Made by a program: the position numbers and the translations under genes. Below, one piece after another: positions 13,640-49,428 of a DNA stretch of 64,000 bases. The notes beneath the pieces were generated by a model. That model was not told where the DNA came from and made no database searches. It saw only the letters and a list, made by a program, of their open reading frames with translations. The DNA comes from a virus. Taxonomy: Duplodnaviria > Heunggongvirae > Uroviricota > Caudoviricetes. Where the stretch lies: IMG/VR virus record IMGVR_UViG_3300029186_000001; one strand, written 5' to 3'. Positions within the stretch are counted from its first letter, which is position 1; the number at the start of each line of letters is the position of its first letter.

Positions 13640-14368
13640 TTATTCCTGAATGCGCTTAAACTCGATTACCCACACCCAGGGATTAGCGTTCCAGCTTTCT
13701 TCACCATAGATGGATTCCCACAGACGCTGGAACGCAACCTTGGCCATTGCGAAATCCCCCTTGGGAGTAAGGAATGTTCCCGGGTGATCAGGAAGCAAAC
13801 TTCCAGCAGGCGGAACGCCCTCATCCCTTGCATCGCATTCGCTGATATCGTTCAACCGCTCAACGCGCACGTTGGTAATTTCCAACAGGATGCGTGATGC
13901 CCATCGCGGCATGTGAATTGATGGACGCCACCCACCATCAAACTTTTCATTCACAGTGTGAGGTTTCCAGTCGGCATCATCGGGTATCGACCATAAACCG
14001 TAATCACCAGGCTTTTGCTCACAACTGGCCCGATAAATCCTTGCTGCGTTCTTCTCATCGCCACGACAAAGGTTGTCGTTCCAGTCCACACTGCAACCAT
14101 CTTCATTGCCTAATATCGCCCATGTTTCACGAACCCAAATTCGATCGCCGACGATACCAAAGGGGCAATTGAAAACACTGCTTACACCATCAGCCCCGTA
14201 CCACTGAAAACCTGCACCAATTTCCCTAACCATCACTGGTGCTTCTGGACCAACTTCCGCAGGCTGATTTTTCATTATCCGCCGCGTCTGCGTTTTCCTT
14301 CCTTCGAGGATGGCTCGGACCATCTCATCGTTGAAAATCATGCCGCGCTCTTTCACTTCGCCTTTCAT
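13640..14368 (-). CDS. ASCH/PUA-like domain protein candidate (242 aa)
   Basis: N-terminal MIFNDEMVRAILEGRKTQTRR resembles ASCH-domain phage proteins; AAGGGGGG RBS. Confidence 0.5.
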   Translation of the reverse strand: MKGEVKERGMIFNDEMVRAILEGRKTQTRRIMKNQPAEVGPEAPVMVREIGAGFQWYGADGVSSVFNCPFGIVGDRIWVRETWAILGNEDGCSVDWNDNLCRGDEKNAARIYRASCEQKPGDYGLWSIPDDADWKPHTVNEKFDGGWRPSIHMPRWASRILLEITNVRVERLNDISECDARDEGVPPAGSLLPDHPGTFLTPKGDFAMAKVAFQRLWESIYGEESWNANPWVWVIEFKRIQE

Positions 14369-14377
14369 GCACCCCCC

Positions 14378-14464
14378 TTACCCATGCGCGACGATGCCGC
14401 CAAAAGTGATAGAGAACAGCCAGAAATAGATCGCGGCCATAATGATTTTGAATGCCGTGTTCAT
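14378..14464 (-). CDS. Small hydrophobic leader peptide (28 aa)
   Basis: MNTAFKIIMAAIYFWLFSITFGGIVAHG with AGGAG RBS; its stop codon lies inside the RBS of the 242-aa gene. Confidence 0.3.
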   Translation of the reverse strand: MNTAFKIIMAAIYFWLFSITFGGIVAHG

Positions 14465-14546
14465 ATTTTCAGCTCCTGTGATTGATTGGATACATGCCGC
14501 GCCTTGCGGCATGTTTTTATTTTCACTTTCTCTGTTTTAAAAATCA

Positions 14547-14563
14547 ATATTTATTAGAGCAAT
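14547..14563 (-). promoter_or_regulatory. C1 operator-like 17-mer (16/17 to consensus)
   Basis: ATATTTATTAGAGCAAT on plus strand; ~85 nt upstream of the 28-aa peptide ORF. Confidence 0.55.
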
Positions 14564-15069: not shown

Positions 15070-15141
15070 ATGCCCTCCTCATTGGACGAAAAAAATGCTG
15101 GTGGGCGCACTCCACCAGCATTAAAAGTGACGCTGTAACTA

Positions 15142-49411: not shown

Positions 49412-49428
49412 AAATTTATTAGAGCAAA
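49412..49428 (-). promoter_or_regulatory. C1 operator-like 17-mer (16/17), Op53-type
   Basis: AAATTTATTAGAGCAAA ~70 nt upstream of kilA. Confidence 0.6.

What the first reader, a model, noticed from the sequence alone, without database searches (positions are those of the whole stretch)
14378..14464. Unlisted 28-aa hydrophobic peptide ORF leading a C1-operator-controlled operon
About 85 nt downstream of a 16/17 C1 operator match, an AGGAG-preceded ORF encodes MNTAFKIIMAAIYFWLFSITFGGIVAHG. Its TAA stop lies inside the AAGGGGGG RBS of the next gene (242-aa ASCH-like), implying translational coupling. It could be a real small membrane protein or a leader peptide regulating the operon.
Basis: seen in the sequence. 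Interest (0 to 1): 0.38.

Follow-up and report, generated by a model that had tools for sequence, protein, structure and literature searches.

The report
Missed small membrane-protein gene in P1
A 28-codon gene for a tiny membrane-spanning peptide, absent from the reference annotation of phage P1, sits at the head of a repressor-controlled early operon and is conserved across P1-like phage-plasmids (about 10% of complete E. coli genomes), but its function is still unknown.

Summary
The window is a P1-like phage. The known C1 operator OpmgT/Op88 lies at 14563-14547. The ATG at 14464 is preceded by AGGAG with an 8-nt spacer and opens MNTAFKIIMAAIYFWLFSITFGGIVAHG. The TAA at 14380-14378 lies inside the very strong RBS of the next gene (ATG 14368).

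The ORF is most likely a real gene. It is intact in 163 of 170 related loci. The SD-led start is kept even where the 44-aa database form is broken (38 of 169 loci). It persists where the downstream gene is replaced by a convergent type I R-M system (47 of 169).

A divergent P1-like lineage (Cronobacter phage JK004 and relatives) has a syntenic 53-aa ortholog. It shows the same operator, promoter geometry, 5' hairpin and SD, and an in-frame dN/dS of 0.14-0.41.

Within the P1 lineage the selection test is only suggestive (P about 0.02 to 0.11). The peptide matches no known family and no paper describing it was found.

The leader-peptide and type I toxin readings are poorly supported. Translational coupling is plausible but probably not required. 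"ASCH-like" for the neighbour is unconfirmed.

This is a modestly interesting new member of a known kind.

The parts
14547..14563 (-). C1 repressor operator OpmgT (former Op88), ATTGCTCTAATAAATAT. Its first base is the last base of the pap stop codon and its last base is the first base of the -35 hexamer.
   Evidence: 16/17 match to the consensus; 6 sites in the window against 0.04 expected. Annotated in P1 AF234172 at the homologous position. Conserved in JK004, L127 and L128.
14519..14547 (-). Predicted sigma-70 promoter P1pmgT: -35 TTGATT (14547..14542), 17-nt spacer, -10 GAAAAT (14524..14519).
   Evidence: Coordinates transferred from the AF234172 annotation. The same -35/-10 geometry is readable in the diverged lineages. 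Predicted only; the simple scan did not score it at >=9/12.
14492..14514 (-). GC-rich stem-loop (ACATGCCGC-AAGGC-GCGGCATGT) at the predicted 5' end of the mRNA. On the + strand it reads as a terminator-like hairpin followed by TTTTTATTTT.
   Evidence: The stem is invariant and the loop variable across about 100 P1-type loci. A hairpin of unrelated sequence sits at the same position in JK004, L127 and L128, with one compensatory A-T to G-C change and G.U pairs that form only on the sense strand.
14473..14488 (-). Conserved AAYCAATCAC motif followed by the Shine-Dalgarno AGGAG (14477..14473), 8 nt before the ATG.
   Evidence: Invariant columns in the cross-lineage alignment. SD duplex -6.6 kcal/mol. 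SD unchanged in the ORF-anchored sample.
14378..14464 (-). Small ORF of 28 codons plus TAA, encoding MNTAFKIIMAAIYFWLFSITFGGIVAHG. Predicted single transmembrane helix at residues 7-25.
   Evidence: Orthologs.
14369..14380 (-). RBS of the downstream gene, UAAGGGGGGUGC, which contains the small ORF's stop codon.
   Evidence: Duplex energy -11.7 kcal/mol, near the window's strongest of -12.3.
13640..14368 (-). Downstream gene (242 aa, PmgT/Upf86.8-type). It is the first gene of the variable region of P1-like phage-plasmids.
   Evidence: PHROG 874, function unknown. Variable region 8 / RD-5 in PMC9603915 and PMC6906374.
14563..15069 (-). Upstream gene pap (168 aa, HAD-type polynucleotide-kinase 3'-phosphatase domain). 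It marks the end of the conserved block.
   Evidence: (PF25109, E 7.8e-12).

Best explanation
The ORF is a genuine protein-coding gene that the P1 reference annotation missed. It encodes a 28-residue peptide that is essentially one transmembrane helix.

It is the first cistron of the early transcript made from the sigma-70 promoter that the C1 operator OpmgT/Op88 overlaps. The peptide should therefore be held low in the lysogen and produced when C1 repression is lifted.

The predicted mRNA begins with a conserved stem-loop, followed by an open SD (AGGAG) and the ATG. Ribosomes finishing the ORF stop inside the strong RBS of the next gene and can re-initiate there. This is a secondary consequence of tight operon packing, not the reason the ORF exists.

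Shown here: the ORF, its start signals and its conservation; orthology to a 53-aa gene under purifying selection in a diverged P1-like lineage; and persistence whatever lies downstream.

Inferred: actual translation, membrane insertion, the transcription start, and the activity of the peptide. My best guess for the activity is a membrane-inserted modulator of a host envelope function during early lytic development.
For: 1. Start signals. AGGAG sits 8 nt before the ATG with a -6.6 kcal/mol duplex. The alternative upstream ATG (14512, the 44-aa form) has -2.7 kcal/mol, lies inside the hairpin, and is broken by a stop or frameshift in 38 of 169 loci while the 28-codon ORF stays intact.
2. Integrity. 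In upstream-anchored samples 108 of 109 viral-contig loci and all 54 complete genome and metagenome loci keep the ORF, with no nonsense or frameshift mutation. Pooled, 163 of 170 are intact.
3. Diverged orthologs. Cronobacter phage JK004 (Pap 74% identical) and three other contigs have, at the same position after pap, the same operator, promoter spacing, hairpin, AAYCAATCAC-GGAGC motif and ATG. The ORF there is 53 aa, and its first 24 or so residues align with the P1 peptide (M1, K6, A11 and W15 invariant; WLFS shared with P0023).
4. Selection. Among the 53-aa genes dN/dS is 0.14-0.41 in frame, against pN/pS of 0.5-1.8 in the shifted frames. blastn finds no DNA similarity between the lineages beyond pap and the operator.
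5. Within the P1 lineage, the ORF frame is the only one of six with a synonymous excess (9 S: 11 N, P 0.018-0.046). Synonymous variants are the common ones (99 occurrences against 39). Third-position diversity is 0.054 against 0.017 at positions 1 and 2.
6. Independence from the downstream gene. The ORF is intact in 47 of 169 loci where a convergent hsdRSM replaces pmgT through humD.
7. Hydropathy. The best 19-mer averages KD 2.0-2.4 in all four forms.
Against: - There is no direct evidence of transcription, translation or membrane insertion, and no paper describing the ORF was found.
- With all loci pooled, the within-lineage substitution test is not significant (14 N: 9 S, P=0.11).
- The P1 form lacks the 29-residue hydrophilic tail that is itself conserved in the 53-aa lineage, so it could be a truncated relic.
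- Natural variants extend the peptide by 9-37 residues after losing the stop, or interrupt it with an insertion, and these persist in a few to about 20 contigs.
- No homolog exists outside P1-like elements, even in an exhaustive HMMER scan, so nothing can be said about activity.
- pap and pmgT are nonessential for lytic growth, so any phenotype is probably subtle.
Confidence: 0.65

Rival explanations
1. Truncated relic. The ancestral gene was the 53-aa form. In the P1/P7 lineage, recombination at the left edge of the variable region removed the tail. The remaining 28-codon ORF is no longer functional and looks conserved only because the lineage is young and the ORF sits between selected signals (promoter/SD upstream, the next gene's RBS downstream).
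For: - The hydrophilic tail is under purifying selection in the other lineage but absent here.
- The pooled within-lineage N:S test is not significant (P=0.11).
- C-terminal read-through variants, an insertion variant and an IS1-truncated copy all persist.
- Similarity between P1-type genomes ends within a few nucleotides of the stop codon.
Against: - 163 of 170 loci are intact, with no nonsense or frameshift mutation, whereas the adjacent non-coding 44-aa extension is broken in 22% of loci.
- The ORF frame is the only one with a synonymous excess, and the synonymous variants are the frequent ones.
- Diversity at codon positions 1 and 2 (0.017) is well below that of the operator/promoter stretch (0.042).
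- The SD and ATG are unchanged.
Confidence: 0.15
2. Regulatory leader or ribosome-loading ORF. The ORF is translated, but the peptide has no function of its own. Translation serves to load ribosomes at the head of the early transcript and hand them to whatever gene lies downstream, either by translational coupling or by protecting the transcript against Rho.
For: - The stop codon lies inside the next gene's SD, 9 nt before its ATG.
- The stop and next start overlap as ATGA in the 53-aa lineage.
- A predicted long-range pairing joins ORF nt 16-33 to codons 8-12 of the next gene and encloses that gene's RBS.
- The downstream cargo is highly variable while the ORF is constant.
Against: - The amino-acid sequence is constrained, which a pure ribosome-loading ORF does not need (dN/dS 0.14-0.41; conservative hydrophobic replacements; invariant K6 and W15).
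- 47 of 169 loci have no co-directional downstream gene, yet the ORF is intact in them.
- No terminator or alternative structure fits between the ORF and the next gene.
- The whole-region fold is not better than shuffles (z -1.4), and the long-range pairing shows no covariation; its three rare variants each break a pair.
- The next gene has its own very strong SD at -11.7 kcal/mol.
Confidence: 0.12
3. Type I toxin-antitoxin-like module. The hydrophobic peptide is a membrane toxin. A short antisense RNA covering its SD and start, ending at the + strand terminator (14492-14514 plus U-run), keeps it silent.
For: - The peptide has the size and hydrophobicity of type I toxins.
- There is a strong terminator-like hairpin followed by TTTTTATTTT on the + strand, immediately upstream of the SD (z -2.9).
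- A CATAAT -10-like hexamer lies at 14438-14443 (+).
- Weak sRNA-like Rfam hits fall on the + strand at about 14431-14520.
Against: - No antisense promoter reaches 9/12, and the CATAAT hexamer has no usable -35.
- The Rfam hits are far below the gathering score (20 against 42 bits).
- The antisense U-run is absent in JK004, L127 and L128, although the hairpin is kept there. In L128 the stem pairs fully only on the sense strand.
- The toxin-like gene is driven by a repressor-controlled early promoter and has an open, strong SD, unlike the sequestered toxin mRNAs of typical type I systems.
- There are no PADLOC, NCBIfam or Pfam hits.
Confidence: 0.07

Closest known systems
Small single-pass membrane proteins of enterobacteria and their phages (own knowledge: e.g. 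AcrZ, MgtS, KdpF, CydX; phage small proteins reviewed in PMC11323111)
   Same: Under 50 residues and essentially one TM helix. SD-led short ORF that is often missed by annotation. Often the first or last cistron of an operon.
   Different: No sequence similarity to any of them. No known partner. Restricted to P1-like elements. Expressed from a phage-repressor-controlled promoter.
Other C1-operator-controlled early transcription units of P1 (OpmgT/Op88 as annotated in AF234172)
   Same: A 17-bp asymmetric operator overlapping the -35 of a sigma-70 promoter. The site is the annotated OpmgT itself.
   Different: The annotated unit starts with pmgT. The data here add a conserved 5' stem-loop and a 28-codon first cistron that persists when pmgT is replaced.
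Type I toxins (own knowledge: TisB, IbsC, ShoB, ZorO, Hok)
   Same: Peptide of 19-50 aa dominated by one hydrophobic helix.
   Different: No conserved antisense RNA. Open SD. Repressor-controlled promoter. No sequence similarity.
Leader peptides and attenuators (own knowledge: trpL, pheL, mgtL/mgtP)
   Same: A short ORF immediately upstream of the first long gene of an operon.
   Different: No terminator/antiterminator structures. The peptide sequence is under selection. The ORF is retained without a downstream gene.
5'-terminal stabilising stem-loops of bacterial mRNAs (own knowledge: ompA 5' UTR)
   Same: A stable hairpin beginning within a few nucleotides of the predicted transcript 5' end, with the structure conserved but not the sequence.
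   Different: The transcription start is only predicted and no stability data exist. In the P1 lineage the same hairpin also resembles an antisense intrinsic terminator.

Membership tests
Protein-coding small ORF (small membrane protein) | Start codon with a Shine-Dalgarno sequence at functional spacing | tested here: met
   AGGAG 8 nt before the ATG; duplex -6.6 kcal/mol, in the top 28% of the window's long ORFs. GGAG and ATG are invariant across lineages.
Protein-coding small ORF (small membrane protein) | Reading frame kept open across relatives | tested here: met
   163 of 170 loci are intact. There is no nonsense or frameshift mutation. The exceptions are one insertion and six junction deletions that remove the stop.
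Protein-coding small ORF (small membrane protein) | Purifying selection in the ORF's frame | tested here: met
   For the 53-aa orthologs, dN/dS is 0.14-0.41 in frame against 0.5-1.8 in the shifted frames. Within the 28-aa lineage the result is only suggestive: P 0.018-0.046 in the first sample and 0.11 pooled.
Protein-coding small ORF (small membrane protein) | Hydrophobic segment long enough to span a membrane | tested here: met
   The best 19-residue window averages KD 2.10 (P1 form) and 2.04-2.36 (orthologs). This is a hydropathy calculation only; no dedicated TM predictor was available.
Protein-coding small ORF (small membrane protein) | Direct evidence of translation or of the peptide | not testable with these tools
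   No Ribo-seq or proteomic data are accessible. Full-text searches for the peptide sequence returned nothing.
C1-controlled early operon of P1 | 17-bp C1 operator overlapping a sigma-70 promoter | tested here: met
   16/17 match at 14563-14547. It is homologous to the annotated OpmgT/Op88 with the predicted promoters P1pmgT and P2pmgT.
C1-controlled early operon of P1 | C1 binding and repression at this site | not testable with these tools
   This relies on the P1 record's annotation of Op88. The window's site differs from P1's by one base (…AAATAT against …AAATCT).
Leader peptide / attenuator | Terminator or alternative RNA structures between the leader ORF and the regulated gene | tested here: not met
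   Only 9 nt separate the stop and the next ATG. No sense-strand terminator was found. The region's fold is not better than shuffles, z -1.4.
Leader peptide / attenuator | Constant association with the regulated downstream gene | tested here: not met
   47 of 169 loci have a convergent hsdRSM instead of any co-directional gene, and the ORF is intact in them.
Translational coupling (termination-reinitiation) | Stop of the upstream ORF overlapping or within about 10 nt of the downstream start | tested here: met
   The TAA lies inside the next gene's SD, 9 nt before its ATG. The 53-aa lineage has an ATGA overlap.
Translational coupling (termination-reinitiation) | Downstream translation depends on upstream translation | not testable with these tools
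   The downstream SD is very strong (-11.7 kcal/mol) and its region has a mean P(unpaired) of 0.39, the same as the transcript average. Dependence is therefore doubtful but untested.
Type I toxin-antitoxin | Cis- or trans-encoded antisense RNA with its own promoter and terminator | tested here: not met
   A terminator-like hairpin with a U-run exists on the + strand only in the P1 lineage. No promoter reaches 9/12. Rfam hits are sub-threshold. The hairpin's G.U pairs favour the sense strand.
Type I toxin-antitoxin | Toxicity of the peptide | not testable with these tools
   No experimental data are available.
ASCH domain (claimed for the downstream 242-aa protein) | Significant match to the ASCH profile or fold | tested here: inconclusive
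   No Pfam hit at E<=1. The best PDB sequence hit is ASC-1 at E=0.84. The single-sequence AlphaFold model has pLDDT 32 and is unusable.

The most novel reading that the evidence does not exclude
The operator, promoter, 5' stem-loop and small ORF together form a conserved 'expression head' placed at the left edge of the main cargo-exchange region of P1-like phage-plasmids. The peptide is a C1-repressed, membrane-acting host-takeover or kil-type factor released on induction. In the P1 lineage it may be additionally damped by an antisense transcript ending at the + strand terminator. If so, a classic model phage, and about one in ten complete E. coli genomes, carry an uncharacterised repressor-controlled membrane effector.
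Probability: 0.12. Interest if true: 0.55.

Novelty: new member of a known kind. Interest (0 to 1): 0.35.

Why it matters
P1 is one of the most used and best annotated model phages. P1-like phage-plasmids occur in about 10% of complete E. coli genomes and carry resistance genes.

A conserved, repressor-controlled first cistron that the reference annotation lacks changes the map of the Op88/pmgT early operon. Many database records also annotate it with the wrong start: 44 aa instead of 28, and 38 aa instead of 53 in JK004. The gene adds an orphan small membrane protein to the list of phage small proteins that need a function.

It also marks exactly where the conserved backbone ends and the pap-lxr variable region begins. 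That region can hold type I R-M systems and lambdoid-type early genes. This is useful for anyone engineering or comparing these elements. The practical consequence is a cheap and clear experiment: tag or mutate 28 codons.

Tried and rejected
1. Family searches with the 28-, 44- and 53-aa forms against Pfam, PHROGs, NCBIfam and PADLOC gave nothing significant.
2. The word-indexed search and the exhaustive HMMER search with the P1 form found only sequences at least 92% identical.
3. Protein-pattern scans of the species-representative genomes and of IMG/VR with the family alignment gave no tblastn-confirmed relatives. A DNA-module pattern found only two Escherichia contigs in the representative genomes.
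4. The apparent recombination hot spot, with six or more different sequences joined at CATGGGTA|, was examined and downgraded. These are deletions whose right-hand partners mostly end in TA. They were found through a protein search that can only detect junctions inside the stop codon.
5. Antisense RNA / type I TA: a sensitive + strand promoter scan and Rfam gave no support, and the antisense U-run is not conserved.
6. The long-range pairing between the ORF and codons 8-12 of the next gene shows no covariation, and its rare variants break pairs.
7. ASCH identity of the neighbour: Pfam, PDB sequence search and a single-sequence AlphaFold model were all uninformative, so no fold search was run.
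8. Literature: 'Op88' and 'pmgT' searches mostly returned unrelated papers. The P1 genome paper (PMC523184) is not held.

Full report
**What is there**

The window is a P1-like phage. The 1.5 kb around the finding is 99.9% identical to Escherichia phage vB_EcoM-813R1 and about 97% identical to P1. The feature lies on the minus strand.

Reading that strand, the elements come in this order:
- The gene pap ends at 14563.
- Its last stop base is the first base of ATTGCTCTAATAAATAT (14563..14547). This matches the C1 operator consensus at 16 of 17 positions. It is one of six such sites in the window, where 0.04 are expected by chance.
- The P1 record AF234172 annotates the homologous site as the monovalent C1 operator OpmgT (former Op88). 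It overlaps two predicted sigma-70 promoters and is followed by pmgT, with no CDS in between.
- In window coordinates the predicted P1pmgT promoter is TTGATT (14547..14542), a 17-nt spacer and GAAAAT (14524..14519).
- A GC-rich stem-loop follows at 14514..14492, then AATCAATCAC, then AGGAG (14477..14473), an 8-nt spacer and ATG (14464).
- The ORF has 28 codons (MNTAFKIIMAAIYFWLFSITFGGIVAHG) and ends with TAA at 14380..14378.
- GGGGGGTGC and the ATG (14368) of a 242-aa PmgT/Upf86.8-type gene come next.

An SD-led ATG ORF of at least 25 codons arises in about 1% of dinucleotide shuffles of this stretch.

**Which start codon**

Databases mostly list a 44-aa form that starts at ATG 14512. Examples are the SJ46 'membrane protein' and the PGAP 'hypothetical protein' WP_001426503.1.

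That ATG lies inside the hairpin and has a poor SD (-2.7 kcal/mol, against -6.6 for the 14464 start). In 38 of 169 related loci the extension is destroyed by a stop codon (CAA to TAA in the hairpin) or by 2- or 4-nt indels, while the 28-codon ORF stays intact. The diverged orthologs described below also start at the homologous SD-led ATG. The 28-aa form is the real unit.

**Conservation in the P1 lineage**

- All 19 P1-like phage records that match encode the peptide, 18 of them at 100% identity, and most do not annotate it.
- The full region is present in 588 PLSDB plasmids and in 564 of 5,426 complete E. coli genomes.
- To avoid biasing the ORF, I collected loci with patterns anchored upstream of it. 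Of the viral-contig loci, 108 of 109 keep an intact 28-codon ORF, as do all 54 complete genome and metagenome loci. None has a nonsense or frameshift mutation, and one has an insertion.
- In the first sample the ORF's frame was the only one of six with an excess of synonymous changes (9 S: 11 N, P = 0.018-0.046).
- With all loci pooled the count is 14 N: 9 S (P = 0.11). The synonymous variants are the frequent ones, with 99 occurrences against 39.
- Diversity is 0.054 at third positions and 0.017 at first and second positions, compared with 0.042 in the adjacent operator/promoter DNA.

Within this young lineage the coding signal is suggestive, not decisive.

**The decisive comparison**

A tblastn search with Pap found one divergent P1-like phage, Cronobacter phage JK004 (Pap 74% identical). 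Directly after its pap gene it has the following:
- the same operator;
- a -35/-10 pair with the same spacing;
- a GC-rich hairpin of entirely different sequence;
- the motif CCAATCAATCAC, then GGAG and ATG;
- a 53-aa ORF, MHLIFKLAITAFYAWMLTVVITSFKPDANMKASRYLGNLSASYDCDQQGDDSL, whose stop overlaps the next gene's start as ATGA.

Its annotators called only the internal 38-aa part.

Searching with this sequence found two further 53-aa variants at 66-71% identity, on three other contigs with the same synteny pmgS-pap-ORF-next gene.

The first 24 or so residues align without gaps with the P1 peptide. M1, K6, A11 and W15 are invariant, one variant shares WLFS with P1, and the other differences are conservative hydrophobic exchanges.

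Among the 53-aa genes dN/dS is 0.14-0.41 in the ORF frame and 0.5-1.8 in the shifted frames. blastn detects no DNA similarity between the lineages beyond pap and the operator.

An ORF that keeps its start, its SD and a transmembrane-type segment through that much divergence is a gene. All four forms have a 19-residue window averaging KD 2.0-2.4. In the long form the basic residues lie just after the helix, which suggests a cytoplasmic tail. That topology is an inference.

**The 5' hairpin**

On the + strand the P1 hairpin, followed by TTTTTATTTT, scores as an intrinsic terminator pointing against the operon. This raised the idea of an antisense RNA.

Cross-lineage comparison argues otherwise:
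- A hairpin is kept at the same place in JK004, L127 and L128 with unrelated sequences.
- L127 and L128 differ by one compensatory A-T to G-C change and one A-U to G.U change.
- In L128 the 11-bp stem forms only on the sense strand.
- The antisense U-run is absent outside the P1 lineage.

In P1-type loci the stem is invariant while the loop varies. No antisense promoter reaches 9/12, and the Rfam hits are far below threshold.

The conserved object is therefore a stem-loop on the mRNA, starting at about the predicted transcription start. It is most simply read as a 5' stabiliser (inference).

**Relation to the downstream gene**

The stop codon is part of the next gene's SD (UAAGGGGGG, -11.7 kcal/mol, close to the strongest in the window). 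Termination-reinitiation is geometrically possible, but that gene hardly needs it.

A predicted pairing of ORF nt 16-33 with codons 8-12 of the next gene encloses that gene's RBS. However, the fold is no better than shuffles (z -1.4) and the pairing shows no covariation.

More importantly, the ORF does not depend on its neighbour:
- The region after it is the known variable region of P1-like phage-plasmids. It is called region 8 (pmgT-humD) in PMC9603915 and RD-5 (pap-lxr) in PMC6906374.
- In 114 of 169 loci a PmgT/Upf86.8-type gene follows.
- In 47 of 169 loci a convergent type I hsdRSM follows immediately after TAAGGGG, leaving the small ORF as the only ORF on the Op88 transcript. It is intact there.
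- Rare variants carry other cargo, including Ead/Ea22, DUF551 and DUF4752 genes.

This argues against a pure leader-peptide role.

**Caveats**

- The P1 form lacks the conserved hydrophilic tail, so it may be a truncated and possibly decaying derivative.
- Variants that lost the stop and gained 9-37 residues exist, as does an insertion variant.
- An IS1-truncated 87-bp remnant of the ORF sits beside hsdR in several hundred IncF plasmids. This is the 'R124/3 downstream of hsdR' similarity noted in the P1 record.
- pap and pmgT are nonessential for lytic growth in a CRISPRi screen (PMC10695390).
- No family, structure or paper gives a function.
- The claim that the 242-aa neighbour is ASCH-like could not be confirmed.

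**Verdict**

This is a real, previously uncharacterised and frequently mis-annotated small membrane-protein gene at the head of the C1-controlled OpmgT/Op88 early operon of P1-like phages (confidence about 0.65).

The rivals are:
- a truncated relic (0.15);
- a ribosome-loading leader (0.12);
- a type I toxin-like module (0.07).

It is a new member of a known kind, of moderate interest, and directly testable with a tag, a start-codon mutant and Ribo-seq.

Noticed in passing
window 14492-14525 (+ strand): Terminator-like hairpin (ACATGCCGCGCCTTGCGGCATGT) followed by TTTTTATTTT, pointing against the pap-pmgT operon. All neighbouring genes are on the other strand, so it is unclear what it would terminate. 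The U-run is specific to the P1 lineage.
   Followed up: yes
L004/L005 4001-4087 (IncF plasmids NZ_CP014498, NZ_AP022550); about 280 PLSDB records and about 320 E. coli genomes: An 87-bp remnant of the small ORF (codon 4 to the stop plus GGGG) lies between an IS1 end and the 3' end of a type I hsdR. It is evidently a fragment of a P1-like hsd-carrying element captured on IncF plasmids. It equals the 'R124/3 downstream of hsdR' misc_feature in AF234172.
   Followed up: yes
window 14378-14381; L120, L123, L125, L066 and proteins P0009-P0013: At least six different downstream sequences are joined to the conserved block at exactly CATGGGTA|, inside the stop codon. They are deletions, and four of the five traceable right-hand partners also end in TA. 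This may be a TA-microhomology deletion hot spot, or an ascertainment effect of finding the variants through read-through proteins.
   Followed up: partly
window 14432-14449 and 14334-14347 (- strand): Interrupted inverted repeat AAAATCAT(TATG)GCCGCG / CGCGGCATGATTTT links the start of the small ORF to codons 8-12 of the next gene and encloses that gene's RBS. It shows no covariation, and its three rare variants each break a pair.
   Followed up: partly
window 14478-14488 (- strand); L126 3054-3066: The motif AAYCAATCAC between the hairpin and the SD is invariant across all lineages although the flanking sequence has diverged. In a few P1-type loci (L052, L055, L072) one CAAT unit is missing. 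Its function is unknown.
   Followed up: no
window 20312-20328 (+), 30732-30748 (+) / 30743-30759 (-), 34265-34281 (-), 49412-49428 (-): Five further C1-operator matches with 0-2 mismatches, including an overlapping inverted pair at 30732-30759 that looks like a bivalent operator.
   Followed up: no
L126 3075-3236 (Cronobacter phage JK004, MZ188976): gene_94 is annotated from an internal ATG (38 aa), although the SD-led ORF conserved in relatives is 53 aa. Likewise, the 44-aa annotation in SJ46 and in PGAP-annotated plasmids starts at a non-conserved ATG.
   Followed up: yes
L128 4159-4473; L126 3233-3547: In the 53-aa lineage the next gene, whose start overlaps the stop as ATGA, is a 104-aa winged-helix protein (MarR_2, E 1.8e-6; PHROG 142 'Ren-like exclusion protein', E 1.2e-5).
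   Followed up: partly
window 15094-15122 (- strand): A strong intrinsic-terminator-like hairpin (11-bp stem followed by TTTTTCG) lies between pmgS and pap. This suggests that pap is not simply co-transcribed with the upstream late genes.
   Followed up: no
window 13640-14368 (- strand): The PmgT-type protein is 242 aa here, against 309 aa annotated in P1. P7 and SJ46 share only its N-terminal part. The N-terminal motif ILEGRKTQTRR resembles ASCH proteins (from memory), but no search confirmed this.
   Followed up: partly
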